From positions 20,600 to 84,599 of the IMG/VR virus record IMGVR_UViG_3300049825_000338: DNA of 64,000 nt. The stretch is one strand, 5' to 3'. Each line of letters begins with the position of its first letter. Positions within the stretch are counted from its first letter, which is position 1. Below, one piece after another: positions 8,277 to 29,942 of the stretch. Source of the DNA: a virus. Its lineage: Duplodnaviria > Heunggongvirae > Uroviricota > Caudoviricetes. The notes below the pieces were generated by a model. The model worked only from the letters and a program-made list of their open reading frames with translations. It had not been told where the DNA came from and did no database searches. The translations under genes were made by a program, and so were the position numbers.

Positions 8277-8290
8277 GTGACGTACGTCAC
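8277..8290. promoter_or_regulatory. GTGACGTACGTCAC palindromic putative regulator-binding site
   Basis: perfect 14-bp palindrome; same motif recurs at 23866, 29901 and in degenerate form at 21256, always 9 bp upstream of a -35 box. Confidence 0.5.
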
Positions 8291-8553
8291 TTACCTGGCA
8301 TGTAGTGCTTGCCTTTCGCAAGCGTTTTCGCAAGGTTTTTCAGCACGCGAGGGTTATGAGCAGCGCGAGCTTTAAGTACGTTGAGTCGGCCACCCTTACG
8401 CACGCCTATCCGAGAGTTAGAAATAGCCGCAGCCTTCTCTTTAGAGTAACCCTTCGATCTGAGAATATCGTACAGGTACGGCCATTTCAAAGAAGGTGAA
8501 CGCCCGTAGGCATTCACCTTCTTTGCTAACTCAATGGCTGACCGCTCTGGCAT
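8287..8553 (-). CDS. hypothetical basic protein
   Basis: ORF only. Confidence 0.4.
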   Translation of the reverse strand: MPERSAIELAKKVNAYGRSPSLKWPYLYDILRSKGYSKEKAAAISNSRIGVRKGGRLNVLKARAAHNPRVLKNLAKTLAKGKHYMPGK

Positions 8554-8565
8554 GAGACCATCTTA

Positions 8566-9594
8566 TCAGAACGTGATGTACCGTTTGCGCTTTGGTTGCC
8601 CAAACCCAATCGCAAGAGCACCCAGACCAGCCAGCATTGATCCAATTCCGATCATCAACATCATTGAGCTGCCGTCTGATCCTGTCTTAGGAAGTACTGA
8701 TCCGGAGTGAGGGTTTGGTGTGGGAGCTGTAGGAGGAGGCACACCGACTGTCGACACTGGAGGCAGCCCTACATCAACTGTTGTACTTGGTGCGGTGGCT
8801 ACCGTTGTAGTTGGTGCTGGAGCTGTTGATGTTGGGGCCGGGAGCGTGGTTGACGGGGCTGGTGCGGTTGTCGTGGGGGCAGGTGGCTGCGTTGTTGTCG
8901 GAACAGTCGATGTGGGCGGAGTGTCACAGTTTGTGCGTACAACATAATCCATCTCTTGACCGTAGTACATCACGGTGACGGTGTGATCCCCGGAGTTACG
9001 TTCGAAAGTAAAGACTCGCGTCTCGGTGGTGTTGGCAAGAACAACGATGGTGTCATACGTGCTGTCCTTACCATCAATCTCGATCATGAACACGGCGGCT
9101 TCGCCATTTTTTCCATGAGGCACTTCTAGAACGTTTGTAAGCTTTACTACGGCCTTACCGCAAGAAACTTCAACAGAATAGTTGGGATTAGCTGGAACCA
9201 GACTGTCGTCAATTGTTGTAGTTGACTCGTAGTCGTCGTCGTCATCATCAACCGTGGTGTCGGTGCCGTCGTCAGTTGACGGAGGAGTTGACTCGTGACC
9301 GTCGTCGTTACCGTCTGGACTTGTGGTTTCTGACTCTTCATCATCGTTCTCGTCGTTCGATGTTGACGGATAGGTCGGAGGAATGCTGACCGTTACAGGC
9401 GGATAGGTGGCCTCGTCGTCATCGTTCTTGCAGTTATCTTCACCATCGTTCTTGCTAGCGTAGAGACTTTCGCACTTGTCTGACGACTTCGGTGATTCGT
9501 CATTGCCTCTAAAGTTAGCAACCATGGATGACCCGAAGGACAGGGCTGTTGTAGCGACTACTGAGCTAATTACACGTTTGATCATGATGACCAC
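8566..9594 (-). CDS. LPXTG cell-wall-anchored surface protein (sortase substrate)
   Basis: N-terminal signal peptide, acidic D/E-rich region, Thr/Pro-rich region, C-terminal LPKTG followed by a hydrophobic segment and KRKR tail. Confidence 0.7.
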   Translation of the reverse strand: MVIMIKRVISSVVATTALSFGSSMVANFRGNDESPKSSDKCESLYASKNDGEDNCKNDDDEATYPPVTVSIPPTYPSTSNDENDDEESETTSPDGNDDGHESTPPSTDDGTDTTVDDDDDDYESTTTIDDSLVPANPNYSVEVSCGKAVVKLTNVLEVPHGKNGEAAVFMIEIDGKDSTYDTIVVLANTTETRVFTFERNSGDHTVTVMYYGQEMDYVVRTNCDTPPTSTVPTTTQPPAPTTTAPAPSTTLPAPTSTAPAPTTTVATAPSTTVDVGLPPVSTVGVPPPTAPTPNPHSGSVLPKTGSDGSSMMLMIGIGSMLAGLGALAIGFGQPKRKRYITF

Positions 9595-9597
9595 TAT

Positions 9598-9625
9598 ACG
9601 CTAGATTCTCGCTGGACGCAAGCAA
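9598..9625 (-). promoter_or_regulatory. putative promoter of LPXTG gene
   Basis: minus: TTGCTT (9620-9625), 16 nt, TAGCGT (9598-9603); AGAAATTGTAAAG element just upstream, as at the 43.1 kb and 43.3 kb promoters. Confidence 0.35.
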
Positions 9626-9643
9626 CTTTACAATTTCTTGCCA

Positions 9644-10906
9644 TCAGGAAGACAACTCCATGTCCGGAACGTCGGCCTCAGCAGCCAGGCCCTCACCCAC
9701 GCGGAACGTCAAACCCTTGTGCTTCAAGGCATAGGTACGACCCTCTGGCGTCTCAACACGGGCAACCACGCCCTCGATAGGATGCGACTCGTCTAGAGGG
9801 TCCGGACCATCAAAATACACCTCAGCAATCTTAACTGTATAATGAGGATCAGCAGCTTCGTGAATGTGCCGAGCAATCTCTCTGACGTGAGGAACGCCGA
9901 GCTGCGCAGCACGATGCTTGACCTGCGGCCATGAAAGCTCTACAGAAACAGGAGCACCGAAAGCGTCTTCGGTTGTCTGTGTGACTCGGTAGATGTACAC
10001 ACCAATCGAGCCATCAATCTGGCCGTACTTGTAGGTAACACCATCGCCCCACTTCTTAAAGTCCTTCGTATCCTTGAAGTTGTGTCGACCCATGATCGGG
10101 CTGTCCTGAGCCGTGTAACCGACAATCTCGTAGTAGACGATCTCGCCCTTGTGAAGCTTGCCATCGAACAACGAAGCTGCTCGCTTGCGGAATGATTCGT
10201 CCAGGTAGTAGCCAGGGCCGTCAAACTGGTCAAGCACCGTATTACGCGTACCGGTCAAGTACATCCATTCAAACGACTCCGCTGACTTCGTCGGTCGTCG
10301 AAAAAGCTTCTCGATGAGTGTGCGCTTCTCTGTGCTCTCAACCTTGTCGAGCACGTGGCCTGTTCGGCCGCTGGTGCCGTGCATCTTGTGCGTGAAGTAC
10401 ACCATCGAGCCGTCAGGAATCTGATCGAAGTAGTAACCTAGCTGTTCGGTGTCAAAATGCTTCGCAAAGAACGGATTTGACCGTCGAAGCTTGTGATCAT
10501 TCGGACCACCAGCTGCCTTAGTCTTCGGTACATGCTTGAGGCACACTTCGTGACCATTCAATTCCGTGAATATGTCACCGGACTTCAGTGCTGACAGATC
10601 GTAGCCTGTGTAAGCGAGCGATGACAATGGTGCAATGTAGCCGTCAGATGACTCGCCACGAAACTTCTGTGGGCGAACGCGCAACGAGTCGGGGAAGTAC
10701 CCGCCGTCCTTGGACCGTAGCCTGTTCTCGGTTGCATACTCATCGGAGACTGCTAACTCCGAAGAGAAAAAGACGACAAGCTCACCGTCTGTCGTGTCCA
10801 GCCCGACAACAACCTGAAAGCCGCCCACCTGAGCGAGCTTCAGTCGGTCTGCATTTGGGTGCGGACGAATCGACGCCTGTGTAATGAATGCTCCGTGCGT
10901 TGTCAT
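9644..10906 (-). CDS. RNA ligase with N-terminal tRNA-binding (OB-fold) domain
   Basis: HPNADRLKLAQV (tRNA-binding domain signature), KMHGTSGR resembling ligase motif I (KxDG variant); adjacent phosphoesterase genes. Confidence 0.55.
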   Translation of the reverse strand: MTTHGAFITQASIRPHPNADRLKLAQVGGFQVVVGLDTTDGELVVFFSSELAVSDEYATENRLRSKDGGYFPDSLRVRPQKFRGESSDGYIAPLSSLAYTGYDLSALKSGDIFTELNGHEVCLKHVPKTKAAGGPNDHKLRRSNPFFAKHFDTEQLGYYFDQIPDGSMVYFTHKMHGTSGRTGHVLDKVESTEKRTLIEKLFRRPTKSAESFEWMYLTGTRNTVLDQFDGPGYYLDESFRKRAASLFDGKLHKGEIVYYEIVGYTAQDSPIMGRHNFKDTKDFKKWGDGVTYKYGQIDGSIGVYIYRVTQTTEDAFGAPVSVELSWPQVKHRAAQLGVPHVREIARHIHEAADPHYTVKIAEVYFDGPDPLDESHPIEGVVARVETPEGRTYALKHKGLTFRVGEGLAAEADVPDMELSS

Positions 10907-11565
10907 GATGCTCTCTTTCGTGCAATAGAAATTTCTTTGATCAATTCTTGCAAGCTTAACGGCCCTTCGATCCAGCTGTCAACTCCAACGTGAAATGAAT
11001 TCATATCGTCATGGGCGACTTGGCCGTGAGTGTGCCCGTGTACCAAAACGGTTCCGTCTCTGAAGTCCTCGCGCTTTGGGTACCACTTCGCGATGTCGTA
11101 ACCTCGGTCAGCGTCGTCGTGATCTGGAGTGCCAAACCATGGAAAGTGACTGAAAATGGTGCCCTCCAATTCAGGAGCGATAGTGACACCGGCCATAATT
11201 GTAGGGTGGATGGTGAACGTACCTTCGTACAACTCACGAGCACCTTTAGCTCGTTCGGGATTCTTGTGTTGTGCTGCTGGGTGAACGTTGTCGTGGTTGC
11301 CTGGAATCAAGTGCTTGATTCCGTTCAAGTTCTCAGCCATCCATGGAATCGACACAGACCGAGTACCCATAGCGGCATCGCCCACGATCCAGATGTGGTC
11401 GTCCTTACCGACAACTCTATTCCAGGCTGTTTGCAGCACGGCGTTATGTGTCTCGACAGTGCCATCAAACATAGCTCCCTGACGAAATTTCTCAGCCAGA
11501 TTGGTGTGAAAGAAGTGCGTATCACTCCAGAAAAACGTGTTCATAGGGTTACACTCTACCCGCAA
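10903..11565 (-). CDS. calcineurin-like metallophosphoesterase
   Basis: DTHF, GDAAMG, GNHD, GHTHG motifs. Confidence 0.7.
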   Translation of the reverse strand: MRVECNPMNTFFWSDTHFFHTNLAEKFRQGAMFDGTVETHNAVLQTAWNRVVGKDDHIWIVGDAAMGTRSVSIPWMAENLNGIKHLIPGNHDNVHPAAQHKNPERAKGARELYEGTFTIHPTIMAGVTIAPELEGTIFSHFPWFGTPDHDDADRGYDIAKWYPKREDFRDGTVLVHGHTHGQVAHDDMNSFHVGVDSWIEGPLSLQELIKEISIARKRAS

Positions 11566-11577
11566 AACCTAGATATG

Positions 11578-12357
11578 TCAAGTGCTGTACAGAAACTGAT
11601 TCAACGTAACAATCGTGTCGAGAACCGTGTCAAGAACTCTGGCAGAACTGTGAAGCGTAACGCCCTGGCTTGACTCAGCCAAGCCGGTGCAGTGAAAGCC
11701 GTCTACATTGTAATCTTCGTTCATATGCCAGTGACCATGGACAAGTCGTTCAGGTCTGATTTCGTTTAGGCACTGGCGAATGAGGTTCTGCCCTGCCCTG
11801 CTCCCCTTACGGTGCTGCTCGGGGATTCGACTCTGAAAGTCGTCATGACCGTACTTATGAAGTACCAGGCTTACCGGTGCTTCGTGAGTCAGTAGAATGT
11901 GCGCTCGCTTGCCACGAACAAACTCAAGCGAGCTAGGCGAAACAACCTCTTCATCAAAGTAGGAGTGCCCAAGAGAGCGCATGTCACGATCGATGGAATA
12001 GGCACCACCAATGGCGATTATGTCCGTCTCATTCCAGCGCCATGCGCCGTGACGAGGCACAAACTGTGTGCCTTCGACGTCCACAAACGGACCTTCTTCC
12101 AGAAGATAGCCCGAAAGAGACTTCCAATCTTCGTGATTACCCGGCAACCAGAAAAGTGCTACACCGGTTTTGGACTGCTCTTGCCTGGCTACGGAGAGAA
12201 AACGCTGACCAGCTTCGTTACGTGGCCAATATCCGAAATCGCCCATCTGAAAGATGGCATCAATGCCGCTGTCTTGCGCAACCTTGAATGCCGACAGCAG
12301 AGCATAGGTGTCACAGTGAGTGTCACCTAGAAGGAGTACGAAGCGAGGGTCGGTCAT
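11578..12357 (-). CDS. calcineurin-like metallophosphoesterase
   Basis: LLGDTHCD, MGDFGYWP, GNHEDW, LLTHEAP motifs. Confidence 0.7.
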   Translation of the reverse strand: MTDPRFVLLLGDTHCDTYALLSAFKVAQDSGIDAIFQMGDFGYWPRNEAGQRFLSVARQEQSKTGVALFWLPGNHEDWKSLSGYLLEEGPFVDVEGTQFVPRHGAWRWNETDIIAIGGAYSIDRDMRSLGHSYFDEEVVSPSSLEFVRGKRAHILLTHEAPVSLVLHKYGHDDFQSRIPEQHRKGSRAGQNLIRQCLNEIRPERLVHGHWHMNEDYNVDGFHCTGLAESSQGVTLHSSARVLDTVLDTIVTLNQFLYST

Positions 12358-12371
12358 CAGTCTAGTCTACT

Positions 12372-13016
12372 TTAAACGCTTTGGTTTGTCAACTCACTGA
12401 TGCGAACGGATAGTAGCCAGTCGTTAATGGTGCTGTAGTCAGGAAGTTCGTTTAGGCGGGATGCATAACTAGTCACCTGCTCAAAGAGACTCCGAACCGT
12501 CGAGATATCGGCATTGCGACAAAAGTCAATCTGTGCGTCTGTCAGTGCCGGGGTGATTGTTCCCCAGTAAAGAAGTGACTGTAGCTGTAGTGACAGACGA
12601 GCAGCATGGCGCAACAGCTTGGGATCGTCCTTACCGACGCGTGCGTAGCGGATCAGTTGATTGTTGATGTACCCCTTGTATGCTCTCACAGCTTCATTAC
12701 TCAAAAAACAGTGACGAAGCTCAACTAATTCAACTCCGGTCTTTGTCAGCGTCTCGTGAGACGGCAGCCACAGTACTTCATTGACCGTTGGATTACCTTT
12801 CAAAGCTAGAGCGCAAAATCGGCCTAACTCGTGATACGTTGTGTCAAACGGCTCGTGACTTTGAATACTCACGTTCTTGTCATACTCAATACCAAGAACT
12901 TTTCGCGTCGGCGCAAGCTGAACTTCTATATAATCATAATCGGAGTCGGGTGTCTCTAATCCGTAGGCACGTGAACCCACCAAAGCCTTAAGAATCGTGA
13001 TCATGGTGAAGCGCAA
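12372..13016 (-). CDS. nucleotidyltransferase-fold (Pol beta-like) protein
   Basis: LVGSRAYGLETPDSDYDY matches G[SG]x(9-13)DxD NTase motif. Confidence 0.5.
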   Translation of the reverse strand: MRFTMITILKALVGSRAYGLETPDSDYDYIEVQLAPTRKVLGIEYDKNVSIQSHEPFDTTYHELGRFCALALKGNPTVNEVLWLPSHETLTKTGVELVELRHCFLSNEAVRAYKGYINNQLIRYARVGKDDPKLLRHAARLSLQLQSLLYWGTITPALTDAQIDFCRNADISTVRSLFEQVTSYASRLNELPDYSTINDWLLSVRISELTNQSV

Positions 13017-13173
13017 TATACCGTGTCTGTTGCGTCGTTGTCACGCTGATCTACGCAAACGTAGCGACCTAGAAATGTGGCCAGTAGACGTGCAGACAAC
13101 ATAGCGTGCACTTCGATCATAGTCTTTAGTAGCAGGATCGGTCGACGCTTGCCCGTTGTCCACACATCATAAA

Positions 13174-13455
13174 TCACTTTACAAGAACCTTCTGCTTGTA
13201 CGTCTTCAAACCGTAATGCACTTGAAGAGCGTCTTCGACGGTTTCGGCCGTTCCTCGTTCAGAGCACGTAGCCATAATCTGCATCGAGATGTTTGCCGGG
13301 TCAAGACCGCTACCTGTCAACGTGTCCTGACGCTTACCAGCAACGGCAGCGCGATGAGACCAAAGACGCTTTTTCGGATGTTCCGTGACCCCGATGTAGG
13401 CTGGTTGACCGTTAATGATTCCGGAATGTACTGCGTACACATAAAATTGCTTCAC
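13174..13455 (-). CDS. GIY-YIG nuclease domain protein (catalytic domain only)
   Basis: FYVYAV...YIGVTEHPKKRLWSHR. Confidence 0.6.
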   Translation of the reverse strand: MKQFYVYAVHSGIINGQPAYIGVTEHPKKRLWSHRAAVAGKRQDTLTGSGLDPANISMQIMATCSERGTAETVEDALQVHYGLKTYKQKVLVK

Positions 13456-13757
13456 TTGTTTGCCAACTCTCTGATTGAAGGGTTTGCCCCAGATATTCCT
13501 AGGTGCTTATGAACGGCTTTTCTAAGCCTCCTGGTATAAAGTGTATGTCTGTCAAAGGGATGAGGATTATCCAGATAGGTCATGTATCCACAACGAACTT
13601 TTAAGTCACCAAGATCAAATTGCCAGAACCTGTTATCGTTGTCGCCATAAAGTCGTTTAAAGTTTGTTGCGCGACCGGCCTTAACTCCGCTAACTACAAC
13701 GGAATACCACCAAAGTCCTCGTGCTTTCGATTTCTCAATTCGGATACCTTCAGCCAC
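13452..13757 (-). CDS. hypothetical protein (ATGA-coupled to GIY-YIG gene)
   Basis: ORF; start/stop overlap. Confidence 0.4.
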   Translation of the reverse strand: MAEGIRIEKSKARGLWWYSVVVSGVKAGRATNFKRLYGDNDNRFWQFDLGDLKVRCGYMTYLDNPHPFDRHTLYTRRLRKAVHKHLGISGANPSIRELANK

Positions 13758-15213
13758 GGAGACGTTCTCTGATCTTGTCTAGCGTGTTGTCTTCGGCATA
13801 GTCCATCGAAATCAAACTGTCTACGAACGCTGGTCGAAGAAGATCGCGTGTAGACGACTCCTGCTCTTCTGGAGATAGGCCATCATTCAGAACGAGTTTG
13901 CCGTTCTCACGAGTCACCGTCAAGAATCCAGTTGCAGACTTCTTCAGGCCGTCATCAGTCACTGGGTCTTTGGCAAGAAAGTGAATCTTTCCGTTGATCT
14001 CGGCTGCTGTAGCCTTCATGGCCCACCCGAACGTATCGCGAGTTACGTACTGGTATGTGTAGCTGCCAATACCGAGCACAACTTCTGGAGCGTAGCCAGC
14101 GGACTGAAGTCGAGCAAGAATTTCTTGCGCTCGATCAAACGTAATGGCGTCTCCATAAATCACGCCAACCTTAGGATTGAGCACTCTGTAACCTTGAGTG
14201 TTCGTTGTGCTTCCAAATACTTTGTCAAGAAGACGGACAACGCCTTTCGATTCATCAGAATCAGCAGGTGCGTCAGGATCACCGCAAATGATCTTTACCG
14301 GGTCGCCACTGTCAGGACGGATCACGAGCTTGCCGTCACGAGCCTCAATTTCTTCCTTAAGGTCAGGAAGAATGTTGTTGATCACGTTCCACAAGTCCCA
14401 AGTGTCAGAAACAACCGAGACAATCCCAGAAGGGTACAGGTGCAAAAGTCGATTGAATGTCTCTCGCTCGTCCATTTTTGATCCAGCGCACATCACTGAG
14501 TGCTCGGTAGCAGCCACTGAGCCACCGATGAGTCCTTGACCGTCGTAGTAGTGCTCAAGCAGCTTGATTGCTGGGATGGTGTCCGTGCCCGTAAAGCTGA
14601 GAAGGTGGCCAGCGCCTGAGATAGCGGCGCTTTCTGGACTGGACATGCCGCGGAAACTGAAGTCATGACCTTGCCACTGCACGAACTCTGGTGCTACACC
14701 GGTAGCGGCTGCGCTACGGTCAAACAACTTTCGGTATCTGTCCGCAGTCGTAGCTGACGTCGATGGCAGCCACAGGACGCTGGACAGCAGCGTCTCGATA
14801 TAGTTGGTCAGCCAGAAGAACTCTGGGTCAGTATTTTCGACCGTAAGAACGGGAACCCTCATCGGCACTCTCGTGCCCTCGTCCAAAGCCATGATGGCAA
14901 TCGGAAGACGTTGCAACTTATGCAGTGCTTCGATGTGGTCGACGCCGATATTGTTGGGTCCGAGGTAGCTATCCAAGAACTCGCGATACTCCGCAACCGC
15001 TACGTCACAGGGGGTATCGAACCATTCATTGAACTCGTCAACAAGATACTTCTGCATGAAATAGCGAAGACCAAAGAACACAATCTCGTCAACACCCTCA
15101 ATGCGTGATCCTCGCGGCGTCAGGTTAGAGTAGACAAACGTCGTTCCTTCTGGATACTGACGACGGTGGTCTACCTTGTAGCCGTCAGTTAGCAAGATTG
15201 CTGGTGTGTTCAC
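13750..15213 (-). CDS. nadV: nicotinamide phosphoribosyltransferase (NAMPT)
   Basis: LLTDGYKVDH, VENTDPEFFWLTNYIETLL, GHDFSFRG, VVSDTWDLWN match NAMPT family blocks. Confidence 0.85.
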   Translation of the reverse strand: MNTPAILLTDGYKVDHRRQYPEGTTFVYSNLTPRGSRIEGVDEIVFFGLRYFMQKYLVDEFNEWFDTPCDVAVAEYREFLDSYLGPNNIGVDHIEALHKLQRLPIAIMALDEGTRVPMRVPVLTVENTDPEFFWLTNYIETLLSSVLWLPSTSATTADRYRKLFDRSAAATGVAPEFVQWQGHDFSFRGMSSPESAAISGAGHLLSFTGTDTIPAIKLLEHYYDGQGLIGGSVAATEHSVMCAGSKMDERETFNRLLHLYPSGIVSVVSDTWDLWNVINNILPDLKEEIEARDGKLVIRPDSGDPVKIICGDPDAPADSDESKGVVRLLDKVFGSTTNTQGYRVLNPKVGVIYGDAITFDRAQEILARLQSAGYAPEVVLGIGSYTYQYVTRDTFGWAMKATAAEINGKIHFLAKDPVTDDGLKKSATGFLTVTRENGKLVLNDGLSPEEQESSTRDLLRPAFVDSLISMDYAEDNTLDKIRERLRG

Positions 15214-16129
15214 GGTGGAACCTTTCGATTAGATTAGCAATTGAATACGTGCGAGTTACGTTCACGTTTGGATGAGCATACGAGTCTGTCGTAAGAATAT
15301 GTGTGTACCGTTTCAGTAGTTCTGATGTGCCTTTCGAAAAGATACCATGAGATACCCACAGCGACAATGGCACTCTACCGCCAACTATGTCAGCAAGACC
15401 ATGAAATGTTGCACCACCATCACAGATATCGTCAACAACAAGCCCGTTAGTGACGCCTTCCGGAATAGCGAGAGACTCGTACCCAGTGATACTGCCGGTG
15501 TCGAAGTTTCGTTTCTTTATTCCGTAGCTCACTTTCTTAATCCCTAGGAATTCTGCAAACGCTTCGGCGCGACCTACTGCCCCATGATCTGGAGTAATGA
15601 CCCAATCAAACTTTGGCATCCATACTTCAGCCTTTGCCAGAACTTCGTGAGCGCTGTAGACAACAACGTTTTTGTTCCAGTTATGAAGCCAATTCAGTGA
15701 ATGAGGATCAAACACGCCGACATAATCGCAAGCGTCCATGAAGTAATCCATGATGATGGAAGCCGTATCGGGCGTTCCATTTTGTTGACGATCCTGACGT
15801 CCTCCGTAGATATACGGAATGAATGCAGAGACGTAGGCACCAGCACCAACCAAAGCATCTACCAGCAGCATCGACCGAAACATACATGATGTCGAACTAT
15901 GGTCAACAACCAACGTCATTTCAAGTCCAGCAAACTTCGGTGGATCAGTCAACTGCACCTGCTGTGCTCCATCAGGAAAAACAAACTCGGCGTACCACGA
16001 CTGATCTGTCTGATACAGGATCATAGCACTGAACGATTTAGGTAAAGTAGACCAGCGCACAGCAACACTCCAAGGATCAGCACTACCGCTCCCATGGCCA
16101 ACGCCCGCTGCTAGCGAGTCCGACAACAC
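15185..16129 (-). CDS. prs: ribose-phosphate pyrophosphokinase (PRPP synthetase); likely start at MILYQT (~16024)
   Basis: IPYIYGGRQDRQ (Prs hallmark) and VVDDICDGGATF PRPP-binding loop. Confidence 0.8.
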   Translation of the reverse strand: MLSDSLAAGVGHGSGSADPWSVAVRWSTLPKSFSAMILYQTDQSWYAEFVFPDGAQQVQLTDPPKFAGLEMTLVVDHSSTSCMFRSMLLVDALVGAGAYVSAFIPYIYGGRQDRQQNGTPDTASIIMDYFMDACDYVGVFDPHSLNWLHNWNKNVVVYSAHEVLAKAEVWMPKFDWVITPDHGAVGRAEAFAEFLGIKKVSYGIKKRNFDTGSITGYESLAIPEGVTNGLVVDDICDGGATFHGLADIVGGRVPLSLWVSHGIFSKGTSELLKRYTHILTTDSYAHPNVNVTRTYSIANLIERFHREHTSNLAN

Positions 16130-20671: not shown

Positions 20672-21208
20672 TCATGATGACGCCATCGTTGCGTGAGCGG
20701 TGCGCCAGGAAGTGATGCGTCGATGGTTGAAAGTCGGAACCATGCTGGCCTTGTGCTTCTTCCAGCCTGTAAACGTGTAGCTCTTGTGCTCGTAGCCTTC
20801 AACCTGAAGATCGGTGCCAATCAGGCTGTCATCCAGGTCTTTCACCTTCAGCGGCCACTTTGAGCGATAGTCCTCAACTTGCTTGCGCCACTCAACGGCG
20901 TACTGGCTACGGCCCTCGATCGACGGGCGCAGATTCCAGATGGAGTCGGGCACATCAAGTTCACCCGGACCCATGACCTCGTCCACAACCTTGACGCTGT
21001 TCCAGGTCTCACCGTACTGCTTGTATGAATGCACGAGACACACGGCGAGGCCTGTGTTCTCTTTGTGCTCGCCGTACTTGAAGATGACCCAGCAGGTCTT
21101 GTAGCCGTTCGACGATGCGCCCCACGAGCGCTTGATGATGTTTTCAGCGCCACCAAACTCTGAATTGATCAGGTCTGAGGCGTTTTGTGGTGATGCGGTC
21201 CAACCCAT
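20672..21208 (-). CDS. hypothetical protein
   Basis: ORF with consensus leaderless promoter. Confidence 0.5.
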   Translation of the reverse strand: MGWTASPQNASDLINSEFGGAENIIKRSWGASSNGYKTCWVIFKYGEHKENTGLAVCLVHSYKQYGETWNSVKVVDEVMGPGELDVPDSIWNLRPSIEGRSQYAVEWRKQVEDYRSKWPLKVKDLDDSLIGTDLQVEGYEHKSYTFTGWKKHKASMVPTFNHRRITSWRTAHATMASS

Positions 21209-21214
21209 GAGTTA

Positions 21215-21243
21215 AGTATGCGCCTTTGTTAGAGGAAAGTCAA
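21215..21243 (-). promoter_or_regulatory. sigma-70-type leaderless promoter with upstream palindrome-like site
   Basis: minus: TTGACT (21238-21243), 17 nt, CATACT (21215-21220), 6 nt, ATG 21208; TGACCTACGTCAC at 21256-21268. Confidence 0.55.
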
Positions 21244-21295
21244 GAAGTTTGTGTATGACCTACGTCACACCTCGTGCTTACAACATTTGAACATA

Positions 21296-21730
21296 TCAGT
21301 CATGAAAAATCGCTCCCGTTGTCCGAGACAGGTAATCACCCGTCAAAACAAACTTCTCGTACATATCCATGATTGCCCGCTCCGGGACAACTCGCTCACG
21401 TGCGGTGTTGCGAGCCAGGCACAGAGCAAGGGGCGTATCGAAGACGTGATAGGACACTCTTGCTTCCCGTGCAAGCGCCAAGTTACGCAGGTCGGAGCGA
21501 ACCTTAGGTGACAGGTTCGTGTCCGCACTGACGACCGTAGACCCGTTAGAGATGGCGTCGGCAATTCGTTGGTTACGAATCGCAACAACCTTTTTCTCAT
21601 CACGAGGCCAAACGGCGTCAATCTCTTCGCGTATATCGTCCCGTGTGACGGTCAAATATCCAGTCGTCTCCGCCCACGTTGACTTGCCGCTCGCTGGCAG
21701 TCCGATCGTAATTATCAGATGTCCCGGCAT
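21296..21730 (-). CDS. polynucleotide 5'-kinase (T4 Pnk kinase-domain-like)
   Basis: IITIGLPASGKSTW P-loop, RDD, VVSADTNLSP, HVFDTP, blockwise like T4 PNK N-terminal kinase domain. Confidence 0.7.
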   Translation of the reverse strand: MPGHLIITIGLPASGKSTWAETTGYLTVTRDDIREEIDAVWPRDEKKVVAIRNQRIADAISNGSTVVSADTNLSPKVRSDLRNLALAREARVSYHVFDTPLALCLARNTARERVVPERAIMDMYEKFVLTGDYLSRTTGAIFHD

Positions 21731-22140: not shown

Positions 22141-22623
22141 TCATGGCTTGCCTTTCTTTGGTCTACCAAGGTGAATACCTTTGGCTTTTGCTGCGGCCAT
22201 ACCGGCCTTCGTGCGTTCTACGATGATCTCTCGCTCAAACTCTGCAACAGCCGAGAGAATTCCCGCTACTAGCTTACCGACCGGTGTGCCCAAATCAACC
22301 TGAAGATCAAGAACGCTGAGAGACCAGCCGTTGCCCTGGAACTCTTCCAGAAGAGTGGCAAAGTCCTTGACTGAGCGCGACAACCGATCAAGCTTGGCAA
22401 CCACAACCCCGTCTGCCTCTCCACGGCGAAGCATAGACAGCGCCCTCTGTAGCTCAGGGCGAGCCTCAGCACTTTTGCCCGAGGCGGCTTCGGTAATGTG
22501 ACCAACGATGTCGTGCTCATTCAACTGACTCCAGAGTCCAATCTTATGCCACTGTGCGTCGAGACCGTGGCCATCCTCGGCTTGGTCGAACGTTGAGACT
22601 CGCGTGTAAGCAATATAGCGCAC
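22141..22623 (-). CDS. serine recombinase (resolvase/invertase) catalytic domain, lacks HTH domain
   Basis: YIAYTRVSTFDQ with catalytic Ser, ends at GRPKKGKP where HTH normally begins. Confidence 0.6.
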   Translation of the reverse strand: MRYIAYTRVSTFDQAEDGHGLDAQWHKIGLWSQLNEHDIVGHITEAASGKSAEARPELQRALSMLRRGEADGVVVAKLDRLSRSVKDFATLLEEFQGNGWSLSVLDLQVDLGTPVGKLVAGILSAVAEFEREIIVERTKAGMAAAKAKGIHLGRPKKGKP

Positions 22624-23677: not shown

Positions 23678-23680
23678 GGC

Positions 23681-23818
23681 CTAAGTATGCGCCTTCTCTG
23701 AGAGGATGTCAAGAGATTTCTTTGACATCTGGATGCGAGCAGTCACAGCGTCTGTAGACGGATGGCTCCAAACATCAAGTTGGGCGGTTCTTGGGGGAAG
23801 AGTAGGGACGTAACTCAT
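23681..23818 (-). CDS. possible 45-aa micro-ORF (not in ORF track)
   Basis: ATG 7 nt after the TATGAT of promoter 23826-23854. Confidence 0.3.
   Translation of the reverse strand: MSYVPTLPPRTAQLDVWSHPSTDAVTARIQMSKKSLDILSEKAHT
23684..23712 (-). promoter_or_regulatory. sigma-70-type leaderless promoter inside an inverted repeat
   Basis: minus: TTGACA (23707-23712), 17 nt, CATACT (23684-23689); -35 lies in the inverted repeat ATGTCAAGAGA / TCTTTGACAT. Confidence 0.55.
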
Positions 23819-23825
23819 AAAGACA

Positions 23826-23854
23826 ATCATAAGCTTTGTGCAAGCAACTGTCAA
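23826..23854 (-). promoter_or_regulatory. sigma-70-type promoter with upstream palindrome
   Basis: minus: TCTTGACA (23849-23854), 17 nt, TATGAT (23826-23831); GTGACGTTCGTCAC at 23866-23879. Confidence 0.5.
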
Positions 23855-23875
23855 GAGGCGAGTATGTGACGTTCG

Positions 23876-24148
23876 TCACGTTGTCTTGTCGTTGTGCCAT
23901 TCGGTGAAACGGTCGTACTTTACTTCCGAACGAGACGTGACCACATCCTGGCTCATGTCATGAGTATCCATCACAAACGAAATGGCTGCCAACACGTCAG
24001 CAGATTCCTCCTCAAGACGCTGCTTGAGAAGTTTCGGATTGTCATCCGGATGATCGCCCAGACCGTAAGCAAGCACCTTGCCGACCACCTGAAGAAGCTC
24101 TCCGCACTCTTCAACCAGCTTAGCCATGCCGTTGTTGCTCATCGTCAT
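23876..24148 (-). CDS. mazG: MazG-like nucleotide pyrophosphohydrolase
   Basis: VEECGELLQ and RLEEESADVL (EExxD/E) motifs in a 90-aa all-alpha protein. Confidence 0.6.
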   Translation of the reverse strand: MTMSNNGMAKLVEECGELLQVVGKVLAYGLGDHPDDNPKLLKQRLEEESADVLAAISFVMDTHDMSQDVVTSRSEVKYDRFTEWHNDKTT

Positions 24149-24420: not shown

Positions 24421-24562
24421 TGGTCCTCGGTCATAGTAGTGCGTCTCGCCCTGTCCACTTTGATCAACGTAGAGAGGATATCGGCTGCATCTTCGAGCGG
24501 TTCACTCCACTTCCACGAGAACTTCCTGGCCTCTTTGGCCGCTCTCCAAAGAAGTTCTGTGC

Positions 24563-26005: not shown

Positions 26006-26084
26006 TCACTACTCTACCACACTTCTGTAACAATTGTAACATTCAGAGGAGAAGACTTACTTCGGCTATACTTAAAGGAGTCAA

Positions 26085-26590: not shown

Positions 26591-26600
26591 ACTTCCAATA

Positions 26601-27107
26601 CTAGATGGAACAGATCATCAACTGTGGCCCGCCAAGAATCGAATCTTCGGCAAGCTGAAGCGTCTGAATAACCTCACTCCATTCCAGGCCACCAATCCCT
26701 GCGCCAATGCGTGGGATGTAGAGGAAGTCGATGCCGAACCCAAACCGCTTGTTGATCGAGTCTAGGCTGGACAAGGCGTTGATCGTTGCATCTCTAATCG
26801 CCTGCTGCTCTGCAAAGGGACCAGGCTCCACCTGAGTGATCATATTGAACACCAACGGAGACTCTGGAGTAACGCCTGCCGGATTGCCGTCATGCCATTG
26901 CACAACTTGACCGAGATTGACGGCTCCATTGCGGCACTGGTCGGCGTAGTATTCGTAGCATGTCGGGTATAGCTGACGAACCTGGCGAGCAAACCCCGCC
27001 CCCATCATTCCGCGAGCGTTGCAGCCATGCGCAAACGCACGCGGCCTGAAGTCAAACAAATTCCCAAATACCTCAATCAAGAGGATTCTCCGTTCCCATG
27101 TAGTCAA
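26601..27107 (-). CDS. macro domain (ADP-ribose binding/processing) protein
   Basis: HGCNARGMMGAGFARQV resembles the macro-domain N..GGGV loop. Confidence 0.6.
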   Translation of the reverse strand: MTTWERRILLIEVFGNLFDFRPRAFAHGCNARGMMGAGFARQVRQLYPTCYEYYADQCRNGAVNLGQVVQWHDGNPAGVTPESPLVFNMITQVEPGPFAEQQAIRDATINALSSLDSINKRFGFGIDFLYIPRIGAGIGGLEWSEVIQTLQLAEDSILGGPQLMICSI

Positions 27108-27771
27108 CCATCTTGCGCATCTTTGTGATAGCGCCGTCGTATTTACGACGAACCATCTCTCCGGTTATCTGCATCTGTGCTCCGATGTCTTTGAAGATCA
27201 TACCGGACGAACGCATACTGACAACCAGACGCTCTTCAGGAGTAAGATGCTTGAGCAATGGTGAAAGCGTGGACTTGAAAGATGTGTCGCTAGAAATAGA
27301 ATCACTTTCGTCGTCGACAGAGCCAAATATAGTGTAAGGCATCCTCTCCAACGATCGACTAGAACGAAGTGACGCAAGAGTTCTGATAGCCTCTGACGGG
27401 TTATCGTCGTACTTCATTTCGTGATTGACTCTAGCGTTCAACTCGTCGCCCAGAATGATGTTGGCCGTTTTACGAATAGCCTCCTGAATCTCGTTGCGAA
27501 CCCAGATCGAAGCATACGTCGAGAACTTGATTCCACGAGACGGATCAAAACCCTCAATAGCTCTAATCAGACCAATAACCGCAGCCTGCTCCATATCCTC
27601 ACCGTGTTTGCTGTACAGAGCGTGCTTACGCGCCCAGCTGATTGCTAGCTTATGGTTGTGCAGCACAAGCGTGTCACGAATCGATCGATCGCGTGTGGTG
27701 TAAAACTCCTTGAGCAGACGCTCCTGATCTGCAAGCGCCAAAACATCTCGTGCCTTTACCATGATCGCCAT
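27073..27771 (-). CDS. RNA polymerase sigma factor (sigma-70 family, SigB/F-like)
   Basis: region 2 (FSTYASIWVRNEI), region 4 HTH (LTPEERLVVSMRSSG...IGAQMQITGEMVRRKYDGAITKMRK). Confidence 0.75.
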   Translation of the reverse strand: MAIMVKARDVLALADQERLLKEFYTTRDRSIRDTLVLHNHKLAISWARKHALYSKHGEDMEQAAVIGLIRAIEGFDPSRGIKFSTYASIWVRNEIQEAIRKTANIILGDELNARVNHEMKYDDNPSEAIRTLASLRSSRSLERMPYTIFGSVDDESDSISSDTSFKSTLSPLLKHLTPEERLVVSMRSSGMIFKDIGAQMQITGEMVRRKYDGAITKMRKMVDYMGTENPLD

Positions 27772-28214: not shown

Positions 28215-28440
28215 TAGGAACGATTCCTGGGCACGTAAACCATGTGATCATCTGCGTTCGTGTGACCGTACTACCACTCATTTCGATAGTCGTTCGATGC
28301 TTTTCATACCATAGATGAGGCTCATGATCTTCAGCAGTCTCGATAGGAAAGCGATTCAATGCGTCATTCGATTGTGAGCAGTGAAGAGACCTCATTTCTC
28401 TAACTAGTGGTGTGTTTTTATTTTTTGCAGTCCAGTTCAC
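28207..28440 (-). CDS. hypothetical protein
   Basis: ORF only. Confidence 0.35.
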   Translation of the reverse strand: MNWTAKNKNTPLVREMRSLHCSQSNDALNRFPIETAEDHEPHLWYEKHRTTIEMSGSTVTRTQMITWFTCPGIVPNE

Positions 28441-29141
28441 GCTGTCAGTTCCTTCTTATTGGCGAGAGGAGCGCGAGATGTGTTGGCGTTTGTGCCGTCT
28501 TCGTATCCTGCATTAAACCCAGCCATAGAAGAAAGACGAATACGTGAAGCTGTCGTGAAATTTCGTTTCCGATAAGCGGCATCAACCTGCTTAGAGCGCT
28601 CCACAAAGACTAAAGCGGTAGAGATAGACTGTTCTGGCGTGGTCTCCTGTTCAGCGATGCGAGACGCCTCCTGAAATCGAGTTGCAATTGCTCTCGCAAA
28701 CCCTATTAGATAGGATTGACGAAACGCACGGGCATGCACGTTTGGACTTGTTTTATATGACGCCTGAGTCAGCGCCTCATTCATCAGCATCTTGCCGAGA
28801 GAGATCGAGCGCTCAGCGTCAGATTTGAATCCGAAGATCGAAACGTCCTTACCTTCTGGTTTGGTGTACCACCAGACACGGCACGAGTAGGCTGAGGCAA
28901 CTGAAGACAGAATTTGAAGTAGTGGACGAGCATACCCACCTGCCACCATACCAAACTTGTAATCAGCTAGGGGGTCTTTACGCTCAATATCAAGCTGAGC
29001 CATAACAACACGATGGCGTGCCATAAGCGCTAGCGCTTTTGCTTCAAAGGTCTCGCGCTCAACGTCGGATGTGTGACTGTGATTGGCAAGCCTCCACAGT
29101 TTTTCGATCTTGGAGACAATGATATCAAGTTCATCGCTCAT
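28437..29141 (-). CDS. hypothetical phage protein (DUF2786-like N-terminus)
   Basis: KIEKLWRLANHSHTSDVERETFEAKALALMARH. Confidence 0.4.
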   Translation of the reverse strand: MSDELDIIVSKIEKLWRLANHSHTSDVERETFEAKALALMARHRVVMAQLDIERKDPLADYKFGMVAGGYARPLLQILSSVASAYSCRVWWYTKPEGKDVSIFGFKSDAERSISLGKMLMNEALTQASYKTSPNVHARAFRQSYLIGFARAIATRFQEASRIAEQETTPEQSISTALVFVERSKQVDAAYRKRNFTTASRIRLSSMAGFNAGYEDGTNANTSRAPLANKKELTA

Positions 29142-29142
29142 C

Positions 29143-29571
29143 TTACCGCACCCAGTAAACGTAGCGGCCGAGACGAATCGCTGTGTAGTTATCCTTAAAC
29201 AGCTGATCAGCCGCCTCGGCCCAGTCGATAGTTGAGAACGGCCAAACGCTGAAGTCGGTATCGTGAATTTCTTCAGCCATGTCGCGGGCGTAGATAGCTG
29301 TATACCGGTCGTTGATCAGTGTTGCACCGTACTCCCAGTCGTCGCTGTACTGCGCCGCTTCCTCAGCGAATGCTTGCAGTTCGCTCAAGGACTGAACGCT
29401 GTCTTGATCAGCCTCGTCACTATCGAGCCATTCACTGTAGCTCATCGGAACAATGTACGACTTAGTAAGGCGAGTATCGTAATCAACATACTCACTACGA
29501 AAATCGGCCTCAAGTGAGTCGATCTCTTCGATGATTTCTCTGCTGTCGATGGTGTCTTGGTTCCAGTTCAT
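29143..29571 (-). CDS. hypothetical acidic protein
   Basis: consensus leaderless promoter 29578-29606. Confidence 0.5.
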   Translation of the reverse strand: MNWNQDTIDSREIIEEIDSLEADFRSEYVDYDTRLTKSYIVPMSYSEWLDSDEADQDSVQSLSELQAFAEEAAQYSDDWEYGATLINDRYTAIYARDMAEEIHDTDFSVWPFSTIDWAEAADQLFKDNYTAIRLGRYVYWVR

Positions 29572-29577
29572 GATGTA

Positions 29578-29606
29578 AGCGTAGTCCTTTGCGTCGAGAA
29601 TGTCAA
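29578..29606 (-). promoter_or_regulatory. sigma-70-type leaderless promoter
   Basis: minus: TCTTGACA (29601-29606), 17 nt, TACGCT (29578-29583), 6 nt, ATG 29571. Confidence 0.5.
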
Positions 29607-29859
29607 GAGGTAATTCTGAAGAGTTTCAGAAACACGTCGCCCAACTACTCCGTTCGCTTTACCCTCCTCCTATCGTGGCCACTCCAGGGATGCTCTCAAG
29701 CTTGCGTTTCGATGGTGGCACTGCGTCTATCGCTGTAATCAGCCTCCCCTCCACCACCTTCATGAGCCTTGCAGCCGTAGGGCGTTTCATCGGGTGCCTT
29801 TCACGTTACCTAGCAGGTCGGCGTGCTTCTGAAACTCTTCAGTTGTTCTTACAGACATC

Positions 29860-29942
29860 ACTGTAGTCCTACTGACCAACAAAGTCAAGCAGAACATGAC
29901 GTGACGTGCGTCACTTGACAAGTGACATAAAGAGAGTAAGAT
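29860..29942. promoter_or_regulatory. divergent promoter pair flanking a central GTGACGTGCGTCAC palindrome
   Basis: plus: TTGACA (29915-29920), 16 nt, TAAGAT (29937-29942), 6 nt, ATG 29949. Minus: TTGACT (29883-29888), 17 nt, TACAGT (29860-29865). Palindrome 29901-29914 between them. Confidence 0.5.

What the first reader, a model, noticed from the sequence alone, without database searches (positions are those of the whole stretch)
8277..29914. Recurrent GTGACG-NN-CGTCAC palindrome fixed 9 bp upstream of -35 boxes
There are four copies: 8277-8290, 23866-23879, 29901-29914, and a degenerate one at 21256-21268. Each lies exactly 9 bp upstream of a TCTTGAC -35 element. At 29.9 kb it sits between two divergent promoters. 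A 2-nt centre is too tight for a hairpin, so a dimeric DNA-binding protein site centred at about -55 (class-I activator or repressor position) is more likely. It marks a sub-regulon: the ncRNA candidate, the 20672-21208 gene, a 45-aa micro-ORF, and the divergent pair at 29.9 kb.
Basis: seen in the sequence. Interest (0 to 1): 0.6.

Follow-up and report, generated by a model that had tools for sequence, protein, structure and literature searches.

The report
Operator-like palindrome upstream of phage promoters
A 14-base palindrome recurs at one fixed distance upstream of four promoters in a previously unseen phage of an actinobacterium. It is most likely the docking site of a dimeric regulator, not yet identified, that controls a small gene set including two highly structured RNAs.

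Summary
GTGACG-NN-CGTCAC occurs three times exactly (0 in 100 shuffles) and once with two mismatches. It is the only recurrent 6-N-6 palindrome in the window. All four copies lie 11-12 nt upstream of the TTGAC of a sigma-70-type promoter on the minus strand.

- **Position.** The centre is at -53.5 at three sites and -54.5 at one. At 29.9 kb the same copy abuts a divergent plus-strand promoter, centred at -41.5.
- **Correction.** Site 4 reads GCTTGAC and is one base further.
- **Setting.** The window is a novel circular actinophage genome of about 106 kb (WhiB gene, many leaderless promoters) with no close relatives, so comparative footprinting was impossible.
- **Best reading.** This is an operator for a dimeric transcription factor held in fixed register with RNA polymerase. 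Its identity is open: a phage ORFan, or a host CRP/GlxR-family protein, whose consensus the motif fits.
- **Named candidate.** The 91-aa divergent gene product models confidently as a plain three-helix bundle with no DNA-binding resemblance.
- **New finding.** Two of the regulated promoters drive ~225-245-nt RNAs closed by the two best long-range stems in the window.

This is ordinary in kind, and only modestly interesting.

The parts
8277..8290 (.). Palindrome copy 1, GTGACGTACGTCAC. It overlaps the TGA stop codon of gene 8287-8553 by 4 nt.
   Evidence: Exact match; sequence read.
8237..8265 (-). Promoter served by copy 1: -35 TTGACG (8265-8260), 17-nt spacer, -10 TAGACT (8242-8237). The palindrome centre is at -53.5.
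   Evidence: The transcription start is inferred, not mapped.
8005..8230 (-). Non-coding RNA of about 226 nt starting at the predicted transcription start of promoter 1. The 5' and 3' ends pair in a stem of about 28 bp. The 3' arm ends just before the -35 box of the next promoter (7999). There is no sense ORF of 20 aa or more.
   Evidence: MFE -98.5 kcal/mol, z = -5.2, 0 of 200 shuffles as good. Inverted repeat I2. No ORF. No Rfam match.
21255..21268 (.). Palindrome copy 2, degenerate: GTGACGTAGGTCAT on the minus strand, 2 mismatches.
   Evidence: It is accepted because of its exact 11-nt offset from TTGAC.
21215..21243 (-). Promoter served by copy 2: TTGACT-17-CATACT, then 6 nt and the ATG of gene 20672-21208 (a leaderless arrangement). 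The palindrome centre is at -53.5.
20672..21208 (-). 178-aa ORFan gene driven by promoter 2.
   Evidence: No Pfam or PHROG family and no homologue other than itself.
23866..23879 (.). Palindrome copy 3, GTGACGTTCGTCAC. It overlaps the TGA stop codon of the MazG-like gene 23876-24148 by 4 nt.
23826..23854 (-). Promoter served by copy 3: TTGACA-17-TATGAT. The palindrome centre is at -53.5.
   Evidence: Best-scoring promoter-like site of the 8-28 kb scan, 11 of 12 matches.
23681..23819 (-). Transcript of promoter 3. It is either a 45-aa micro-ORF whose ATG lies 7 nt after the -10 box, or a short leader with a 12-14-bp hairpin. It runs through the next promoter (23712).
   Evidence: (z = -2.0). 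Not called as a gene in the public contig.
29901..29914 (.). Palindrome copy 4, GTGACGTGCGTCAC, shared by two divergent promoters.
29860..29888 (-). Minus-strand promoter at copy 4: TTGACT-17-TACAGT, 12 nt from the palindrome. The palindrome centre is at -54.5.
29610..29853 (-). Transcript of about 245 nt from the minus-strand promoter at copy 4. It is closed by 32-nt arms (29811-29842 pairing with 29616-29647). The 3' arm ends 9 nt before the -35 box of the next promoter (29606). It contains a 43-aa ORF with a possible ribosome-binding site.
   Evidence: Inverted repeat I1, the longest in the window; fold; ORF. No gene is called here.
29915..29942 (+). Plus-strand promoter abutting copy 4: TTGACA-16-TAAGAT, then 6 nt and ATG. 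The palindrome centre is at -41.5.
29949..30224 (+). 91-aa gene transcribed divergently from copy 4. It is one of only four plus-strand genes within the minus-strand block.
29910..29926 (.). Second perfect palindrome, GTCACTTG-A-CAAGTGAC. It shares GTCAC with copy 4 and covers the plus-strand -35 box.
   Evidence: Read directly; it forms the 7-bp hairpin seen.

Best explanation
The palindrome is the operator of a homodimeric transcription factor, most likely of helix-turn-helix type. Each monomer reads a GTGACG half-site in successive major grooves. Its position just upstream of the -35 box is held to within one base pair, so the bound protein lies on a defined face relative to host sigma-A RNA polymerase.

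At four minus-strand promoters the centre is at -53.5/-54.5. That leaves about 11 bp between the protein and sigma region 4, enough room for an alpha C-terminal domain. This is a class-I-like geometry for a small regulator. At the divergent promoter of the 91-aa gene the same bound dimer is centred at -41.5, the class-II geometry.

I commit to a regulator that acts through direct contact with RNA polymerase. I think activation or fine-tuning is more likely than simple occlusion. It co-regulates five units:

- two structured RNAs of about 225-245 nt;
- a short leader or micro-ORF;
- a 178-aa ORFan;
- the 91-aa gene.

What is shown: the motif, its non-random recurrence, its register, the promoters by consensus, and the RNA structures by folding.

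What is inferred: protein binding, the transcription start sites, the sign of regulation, and the identity of the factor. For identity I estimate roughly 50% a phage ORFan protein, 30% a host CRP/GlxR-family protein and 20% something else.
For: - **Recurrence.** Three exact copies against 0 in shuffles. This is the only recurrent 6-N-6 palindrome in the window.
- **Register.** All four copies lie 11-12 nt from the TTGAC of a full promoter, at p of about 0.001 each. No other promoter-like site carries the motif.
- **Location.** Every copy is intergenic. None lies in coding sequence in the window, and there is no further copy in the ~16 kb fetched beyond it.
- **Half-sites.** Seven of eight read GTGACG, so six bases per half-site are constrained. 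The flanks are otherwise unrelated, which argues for selection on a binding site and against duplication of a DNA segment.
- **Geometry at 29.9 kb.** The centre falls exactly at -41.5 for a promoter followed by a leaderless ATG.
- **Promoter quality.** Promoters with the palindrome have a slightly weaker -35 box (TTGACG, TTGACT, TTGACA, TTGACT). Eleven of the 12 other leaderless promoters have TTGACA. The plus-strand promoter has a 16-nt spacer where most of the others have 17. This is consistent with partial dependence on an activator.
- **Hairpin alternative.** It is weak.
- **Motif class.** The sequence lies within the range read by CRP/FNR-type dimers (PMC3520106; PMC10187061).
Against: - No protein that could bind the site was identified. 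No helix-turn-helix or other sequence-specific DNA-binding Pfam domain appears in the roughly 80 kb of the genome whose genes were looked up, apart from a sigma factor and a WhiB protein.
- The promoters are close to consensus, so they may not need an activator.
- -53.5 is not a position from which E. coli CRP activates (established knowledge: Gaston et al. 1990).
- No related genome carries the arrangement, so conservation could not be tested.
- The transcription start sites are predictions.
- Copy 2's C-to-T change keeps a G-U pair in a minus-strand RNA hairpin. This is a faint hint, from one site only, of an RNA-level role.
Confidence: 0.65

Rival explanations
1. The factor is specifically the host's CRP/GlxR-family (cAMP receptor type) regulator. 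The phage has placed host-type sites at these promoters, so that the units follow the host's cAMP or metabolic state.
For: All three exact copies fit the Streptomyces coelicolor Crp consensus GTG(N)6GNCAC (PMC3520106). They contain the family core GTGA-N6-TCAC. Three of the four 16-mers match TGTGA-N6-TCACA with one mismatch. The family member Clr reads a 6-base half-site with C6/G11 and an N4 spacer, as this motif does (PMC10187061). The centre at -41.5 is the canonical class-II position. The host is an actinobacterium (WhiB gene; leaderless promoters), a phylum in which Crp/GlxR homologues are widespread (established knowledge). No DNA-binding regulator was found in the phage.
Against: The two inner bases (CG) are invariant in 7 of 8 half-sites, whereas the CRP spacer is normally free. 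Natural CRP regulons are degenerate, yet here three copies are perfect. -53.5/-54.5 is not a CRP class-I position in E. coli. CRP-like motifs in general are not enriched in the window (39 found against 40.7 expected at 2 mismatches or fewer). The host is unknown.
Confidence: 0.3
2. The 91-aa product of the divergent gene 29949-30224 is the regulator and controls itself, in a cI/PRM-like arrangement with its operator at -41.5.
For: It is the only gene transcribed divergently from a palindrome. It is one of four plus-strand genes in the minus-strand block. Its -35 box abuts the palindrome.
Confidence: 0.08
3. The site binds a repressor that acts as a roadblock or anti-activator. It would stop read-through from the upstream genes (two copies overlap their stop codons) or displace the polymerase alpha subunit. 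This is loosely like the stoperators of mycobacteriophage L5.
For: Copies 1 and 3 sit exactly at the 3' ends of upstream genes. The promoters are near consensus and may not need activation. In promoters without the palindrome the same -60 to -40 stretch is A-rich (CAAAGAAA), resembling an UP element.
Against: A roadblock does not need a register fixed to within 1 bp relative to the next -35 box. There are only four copies. The site is symmetric, unlike the asymmetric, orientation-dependent 13-bp stoperators (established knowledge). Copy 4 has no upstream gene reading into it on the minus strand.
Confidence: 0.15
4. The palindrome acts in RNA, as a small hairpin that terminates or stabilises the 3' ends of transcripts coming from the upstream genes.
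For: A 5-bp stem with a 4-nt loop can form. The terminator scan flagged copy 3, though on the plus strand. Copy 2's substitution keeps a G-U pair.
Against: The energies (-6.3 to -9.5 kcal/mol) are no better than shuffled sequence (z from -0.07 to -1.4). There is no U tract after the stem on the transcribed strand. This reading does not explain the fixed distance to the next -35 box, or copy 4, which lies between divergent promoters.
Confidence: 0.04
5. The copies are dispersed centromere (parS-like) sites of a partition system, as in the plasmid-prophage N15.
For: Dispersed 14-16-bp palindromes are typical of parS and N15 sopC sites (established knowledge). The protein encoded at 30631-31128 begins with a KGGQGTST stretch that resembles a deviant Walker A box.
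Against: That protein has no Pfam or PHROG family, and its only PDB hit is insignificant (E = 0.45). The signature lysine is missing. No ParB was found. A centromere role does not predict a fixed register with promoters.
Confidence: 0.02

Closest known systems
Binding sites of CRP/FNR-family regulators (E. coli CAP TGTGA-N6-TCACA; Streptomyces coelicolor Crp GTG(N)6GNCAC; Corynebacterium GlxR; Sinorhizobium Clr TGTTAC-N4-GTAACA)
   Same: Both are dyads with a GTGA...TCAC core 10 bp apart. The motif fits the S. coelicolor consensus exactly and the CAP 16-mer with one mismatch in three of four copies. C6/G11 are conserved as in Clr. One promoter has the site at the class-II position, -41.5.
   Different: The innermost CG is also invariant, so the spacer is only 2 free bases. 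The other four promoters have the site at -53.5/-54.5, which is not a canonical class-I position. No CRP-family protein is known for this system. Three copies are perfect instead of degenerate.
Late-promoter activator sites of phages P2, P4 and 186 (Ogr, Delta, B), a dyad centred near -55 (from established knowledge, not tested here)
   Same: Both are phage promoters that carry a dyad at a fixed position of about -55. The dyad is read by a small regulator that contacts the polymerase alpha subunit, and it defines a small co-regulated promoter set.
   Different: The sequence is different (TGT-N12-ACA). Those promoters have poor -35 boxes and depend strictly on the activator, whereas the -35 and -10 boxes here are near consensus. 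No Ogr-like zinc-finger protein was seen.
Lambda cI at OR2 relative to PRM, centre about -42 (established knowledge)
   Same: Both have a dimer site abutting the -35 box of a promoter that diverges from another promoter served by the same operator region.
   Different: Lambda uses three tandem operators that overlap the opposing promoter. Here a single site lies 12 nt clear of the opposing -35 box. The divergent gene product does not look like a repressor.
Stoperators of mycobacteriophage L5 and conserved inverted repeats of Streptomyces phage phiC31 (established knowledge)
   Same: Both are short, highly conserved protein-binding motifs scattered through the intergenic regions of an actinophage genome.
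   Different: Stoperators are asymmetric, number about 30, depend on orientation, and act on elongation wherever they lie. This motif is symmetric, has four copies, and is locked to the promoter register.

Membership tests
CRP/FNR-family binding site | Inverted repeat with core GTGA-N6-TCAC (TGTGA-N6-TCACA; in actinobacteria GTG(N)6GNCAC) | tested here: met
   All three exact copies contain GTGA-N6-TCAC and fit GTG(N)6GNCAC (PMC3520106). The 16-mers match TGTGA-N6-TCACA with 1, 1, 1 and 2 mismatches.
CRP/FNR-family binding site | Spacer bases largely free; sites within a regulon degenerate | tested here: not met
   The inner CG is invariant in 7 of 8 half-sites, and three copies are identical at all 12 specified positions. 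The Clr subgroup does read position 6, so this lowers membership but does not exclude it.
CRP/FNR-family binding site | Centre at a class-II (-41.5) or class-I (-61.5, -71.5 ...) position | tested here: inconclusive
   -41.5 is met at the plus-strand promoter. The four minus-strand promoters have -53.5/-54.5. The transcription start sites are predicted, and positional rules in actinobacteria are less well defined.
CRP/FNR-family binding site | A CRP-family protein is present in the host or the phage and binds the site | not testable with these tools
   The host is unknown. No cNMP-binding or CRP-type domain appears among the phage genes looked up.
Operator of a phage-encoded autoregulated repressor or activator (cI/Cro-like module) | Regulator gene adjacent to and divergent from its operator; the product has a DNA-binding fold | tested here: not met
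   The divergent gene exists (29949-30224). Its confident model (pLDDT 90) is a three-helix bundle with no match to a DNA-binding fold. A homologue elsewhere lacks the palindrome.
Intrinsic (rho-independent) terminator | Stable G+C-rich hairpin followed by a U tract on the transcribed strand | tested here: not met
   The stem is 5 bp, at -6.3 to -9.5 kcal/mol, within the range of shuffled sequence. No U tract follows (sequences).
L5-type stoperator | Asymmetric 13-bp site, many copies, one orientation relative to transcription, position independent of promoters | tested here: not met
   The site is symmetric, there are four copies, and all lie at one promoter offset.
Bacterial Y RNA (YrlA type), considered for the RNAs driven by copies 1 and 4 | Long stem formed by the 5' and 3' ends, and a Ro60 (TROVE) gene in the genome | tested here: met
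   Terminal stems of about 28 and 32 bp. A TROVE gene lies at 16083-17612.
Bacterial Y RNA (YrlA type), considered for the RNAs driven by copies 1 and 4 | GNCGAA(N0-1)G Ro-binding motif, tRNA-like T-arm, length 80-130 nt, Rfam match | tested here: not met
   None of these motifs is present (motif taken from PMC4201824). There is no meaningful Rfam match even at E up to 10. The lengths are about 226 and 245 nt. The RNAs are not next to the TROVE gene.
parS/sopC-type centromere | ParA and ParB genes, with the sites bound by ParB | tested here: not met
   No ParA or ParB family was detected. The Walker-A-like protein at 30631-31128 has no significant match.

The most novel reading that the evidence does not exclude
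The palindrome is a host cAMP-receptor (CRP/GlxR-type) site that the phage has copied onto a small promoter set. The main products of that set are two long-stemmed non-coding RNAs that work with the phage's own Ro60 (TROVE) protein and RNA-repair enzymes. The phage would then tie an RNA quality-control or repair programme to the metabolic state of its host. The RNAs would be a new, non-YrlA class of Ro60 partner.
Probability: 0.08. Interest if true: 0.7.

Novelty: new member of a known kind. Interest (0 to 1): 0.38.

Why it matters
This genome has no cultured relative and about 70% ORFan genes. In that setting, the palindrome gives a concrete handle on the phage's regulatory circuit.

- **Bait.** It is a 14-bp probe that could fish out the regulator by DNA pull-down.
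- **Defined regulon.** It marks five units, two of them abundant-looking structured RNAs.
- **If the binder is the host Crp/GlxR.** This would be a clear case of a lytic actinophage wiring host cAMP signalling into its programme.
- **If the binder is a phage ORFan.** This would add a new DNA-binding family.

Either way the principle is textbook: an operator held in fixed register with RNA polymerase. The value is local to this phage lineage, not conceptual.

Tried and rejected
**Comparative footprinting failed.**
- There was no megablast match among phage records.
- There were no relatives in IMG/VR for the rIIA-like or 91-aa proteins, except one locus at 39% identity.
- The best homologues of the rIIA-like protein are 31-35% identical. 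Their loci have 61% GC and lack the motif.
- The 178-aa protein is an ORFan.
- The distant freshwater actinophage DSL-LC01 has neither the motif nor this promoter style.

**Pattern scans for palindrome plus TTGAC were uninformative.** Scans of viral, metagenome and genome collections gave only single, scattered hits unrelated to the window. They say nothing about a host regulon.

**The search for a regulator found nothing.**
- Pfam and PHROG scans of about 35 neighbouring and small proteins found no DNA-binding domain.
- The single-sequence structure model of the 91-aa protein was poor (pLDDT 63).
- The model built with an alignment was confident but not DNA-binding-like.

**Other readings were rejected.**
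- Hairpin or terminator: rejected on energy and the missing U tract.
- A duplicated DNA cassette: rejected because the flanks do not align.
- The two long-stemmed RNAs as paralogues or copies of one MITE: rejected because they have no significant sequence similarity.
- Those RNAs as known families: no meaningful Rfam match, no Y-RNA motifs, and no blastn hit in phages.
- A ParA/centromere system: no support.

**A literature search** for the exact half-sites as a bacterial operator found nothing relevant.

Full report
**1. The observation**

The pattern GTGACGNNCGTCAC matches exactly at 8277, 23866 and 29901. None of 100 dinucleotide-preserving shuffles gave a match. Allowing two mismatches adds 21255-21268, 41007 and 56196. 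That class is not enriched (6 found against 4.3 expected), so the extra copies need independent support.

I enumerated all perfect palindromes with 6-base arms and gaps of 0-8. GTGACG with a gap of 2 is the only half-site that recurs three times.

On the minus strand the four sites read as follows:
- Site 1: GTGACGTACGTCAC-ATAGATATCTC-TTGACG
- Site 2: GTGACGTAGGTCAT-ACACAAACTTC-TTGACT
- Site 3: GTGACGAACGTCAC-ATACTCGCCTC-TTGACA
- Site 4: GTGACGCACGTCAC-GTCATGTTCTGC-TTGACT

The gap to TTGAC is therefore 11, 11, 11 and 12 nt.

Each TTGAC is the -35 box of a full TTGACN-17-NANNNT promoter. A random position has about a 0.001 chance of lying at that offset from one of the 34 such promoters, which validates the degenerate copy at 21255. 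Among 73 promoter-like sites, only these four carry the palindrome at the offset (0, 0, 0 and 2 mismatches); all others have at least 4.

The near-matches at 41007 and 56196 are inside genes, away from promoters, and are best treated as chance.

**2. Where this is**

The window is a phage genome.
- It encodes a family-A DNA polymerase, a DUF927 primase-helicase, rIIA- and rIIB-like proteins and a large terminase.
- A WhiB gene and several actinophage-specific domains of unknown function point to an actinobacterial host.
- At least 13 promoters have the form TTGACA-17-TAnnnT, followed by 6 nt and ATG. This is the leaderless arrangement typical of that phylum (established knowledge).
- The public copy is a 105,914-bp contig whose ends overlap by 30 nt. 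The genome is therefore circular or terminally redundant, and the window spans the junction.
- I found no close relative anywhere. There is no megablast hit among 50,697 phage records. The polymerase is 32% identical to those of Microbacterium phages. The best rIIA-like homologues are 31-35% identical.

Conservation of the palindrome in relatives therefore could not be tested.

**3. Anatomy relative to transcription**

I take the transcription start to be 7 nt after the -10 box. For the leaderless genes that position is the A of the ATG. On this basis the palindrome spans -60 to -47 at sites 1-3 (centre -53.5) and -61 to -48 at site 4 (centre -54.5).

At site 4 the other edge of the palindrome touches the -35 box of a plus-strand promoter: TTGACA at 29915, a 16-nt spacer, TAAGAT, 6 nt, then ATG at 29949. 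Relative to that start the centre is exactly -41.5.

A second perfect palindrome, GTCACTTG-A-CAAGTGAC (29910-29926), overlaps the first and covers that -35 box. I cannot say whether it matters.

Copies 1 and 3 overlap by 4 nt the TGA stop codons of the upstream genes, which encode a DUF7218 protein and a MazG-like pyrophosphohydrolase.

**4. What the regulated promoters make**

- **Promoter 1** starts a 226-nt stretch with no ORF of 20 codons or more. Its first and last ~28 nt pair with each other. The MFE is -98.5 kcal/mol, z = -5.2, and no shuffle folds as well.
- **The minus-strand promoter at site 4** starts a ~245-nt stretch closed by 32-nt arms.
- These two stems are the top two of the ten long-range inverted repeats found in the whole 64 kb. 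Both begin within 12 nt of the predicted start of a palindrome promoter.
- In both cases the 3' arm ends 5-9 nt before the -35 box of the next, palindrome-free promoter (7999 and 29606). That promoter drives a leaderless gene.
- The two RNAs are not similar in sequence.
- They match nothing meaningful in Rfam or in phage records.
- **Promoter 3** gives either a 45-codon micro-ORF or a ~105-nt leader with a modest hairpin (z = -2.0). This too ends at the next promoter (23712).
- **Promoter 2** drives a leaderless 178-aa ORFan.

The genome carries a Ro60-type TROVE gene and a set of RNA-repair-like genes, so I tested whether the RNAs are bacterial Y RNAs. They share the terminal stem. They lack the GNCGAA motif and the tRNA-like T-arm that define YrlA RNAs (PMC4201824). 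They are about twice as long and are not next to the TROVE gene. I do not file them as Y RNAs.

**5. What the palindrome most likely is**

A perfect dyad with GTGA/TCAC cores one helical turn apart, intergenic, and in fixed register with the -35 box is what a homodimeric DNA-binding regulator site looks like.

- Seven of eight half-sites read GTGACG while the flanks are unrelated. The copies are therefore kept by selection on the sequence, not by duplication of a segment.
- As RNA the element is only a 5-bp stem with a 4-nt loop. It is no more stable than shuffled sequence and has no U tract.
- A register held to within one base pair at four independent promoters, plus the exact class-II position at a fifth, points to a protein that works by touching RNA polymerase and not by simply covering the promoter.
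- With a 14-bp site centred at -53.5, about 11 bp remain free next to the -35 box. That is enough room for an alpha C-terminal domain. This is the arrangement known for the P2/P4/186 late activators near -55 (established knowledge).
- The palindrome promoters have slightly weaker -35 boxes than the rest. The plus-strand promoter has a 16-nt spacer where most others have 17.

I therefore lean towards activation or tuning, with low confidence. Repression by blocking alpha-subunit contacts, or by holding the polymerase, is not excluded.

**6. Who binds it**

A full HMMER scan then found a small family of ~90-aa proteins with conserved Cys28, Cys35, His73 and tryptophans.
- With that alignment AlphaFold gives pLDDT 90.4: a three-helix bundle with a long loop.
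- The closest homologue lies in another phage contig, co-directional with its neighbours. It sits behind a leaderless-type promoter with no such palindrome.
- The 113-aa product of 51306-51647 has only a marginal PHROG hit to a small terminase.

None of the roughly 35 proteins I scanned, and none of the precomputed annotations for about 80 kb of the genome, shows a sequence-specific DNA-binding domain. The exceptions are a sigma-70-family protein (27073-27771) and a WhiB protein.

*A host factor.* The motif fits the footprint-derived consensus of Streptomyces coelicolor Crp, GTG(N)6GNCAC (PMC3520106). It fits the family motif TGTGA-N6-TCACA with one mismatch in three of four copies. The family member Clr reads C6/G11 with a 4-base spacer, as this motif does (PMC10187061).

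Several points count against the host factor:
- The inner CG is invariant.
- Three copies are perfect.
- -53.5 is not a canonical position.
- CRP-like motifs are not otherwise enriched in the window.

I put the odds at roughly 50% an unrecognised phage protein, 30% a host CRP-family protein and 20% something else.

**7. Verdict**

The named regulators are not supported, and one positional detail needs correction.

In kind this is an ordinary operator-promoter arrangement in an unusual, unrelated phage. The association with two long-stemmed RNAs that sit just upstream of leaderless promoters is the part most worth following up.

Noticed in passing
window 8005-8230 (-): Non-coding RNA of about 226 nt with a terminal stem of about 28 bp joining its two ends (MFE -98.5 kcal/mol, z = -5.2). 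It has no ORF, no Rfam family and no blastn match in phages. It ends just before the promoter of the helicase gene 6369-7964.
   Followed up: partly
window 29616-29647 and 29811-29842: The longest long-range inverted repeat in the window: 32-nt arms, 84% complementary, 163 nt apart. It closes a ~245-nt transcript that contains a 43-codon ORF with a possible ribosome-binding site. It has the same architecture as the 8.0-8.2 kb RNA but no sequence similarity to it.
   Followed up: partly
window, e.g. 43360, 43150, 40149, 36416, 29606, 23712, 23088, 21243, 20644, 12392, 7999, 4828 (-) and 29915 (+): At least 13 promoters have the form TTGACA-(16-17)-TAnnnT followed by 6-7 nt and ATG. These are leaderless mRNAs, nearly one promoter per small gene. 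Many have an A-rich CAAAGAAA-like stretch at about -50 to -40.
   Followed up: partly
window 43150 and 43360 (-); 40149 and 36416 (-): Other promoter pairs share their own upstream motifs. AGAAATTGTA(C/T)AAA, with a TTGTACAA palindromic core, lies before the 43150 and 43360 promoters. TGTAGAAGTT lies before the 40149 and 36416 promoters. This suggests further promoter classes.
   Followed up: no
window 27073-27771 (-): The phage encodes a sigma-70-family protein (regions 2 and 4). It presumably serves a promoter class different from the host-type promoters seen here.
   Followed up: no
window 9644-17612 and 21296-21730 (-): A cluster of RNA quality-control and repair-like genes: TROVE/Ro60 (16083-17612), an RNA-ligase-like protein with a weak PHA02142 match (9644-10906), a metallophosphatase (11578-12357), an RlaP nucleotidyltransferase (12372-13016), NAMPT/NAPRTase (13750-15213), an AAA_33 kinase (21296-21730) and a Macro domain protein (26601-27107).
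   Followed up: partly
window 29910-29926: A second perfect palindrome, GTCACTTG-A-CAAGTGAC. It overlaps the right half of palindrome copy 4 and covers the -35 box of the plus-strand promoter.
   Followed up: no
window 29949-30224 (+): The 91-aa protein is not a true ORFan. It belongs to a small family of ~90-aa proteins with invariant Cys28, Pro46, Trp59 and Trp66 and near-invariant Cys35 and His73. It is confidently predicted as a three-helix bundle with no known structural relative.
   Followed up: yes
window 22141-22623 (-): A serine-recombinase (resolvase) catalytic domain of 160 aa. It ends right after the GRPKK arm, so it lacks the usual C-terminal helix-turn-helix domain.
   Followed up: no
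window 46799-48658 (-): A 619-aa protein with an N-terminal PemK/MazF-like toxin domain (Pfam E = 1.7e-6).
   Followed up: no
window 51914-51930 and 51958-51974: A 17-nt inverted repeat, TTTTTGTAACTGGCAAA / TTTCTCAGTTACAAAAA. It lies in the region where transcription switches from the minus-strand block to the plus-strand block, so it could be a bidirectional terminator or an origin-like element.
   Followed up: no
window about 7178-7207: The public contig (logan SRR35533331_34691, 105,914 bp) has ends that overlap by 30 nt inside the helicase gene, and the window runs across this junction. The genome therefore assembles as a circle of about 105.9 kb. A 106,011-bp JGI copy also exists.
   Followed up: partly
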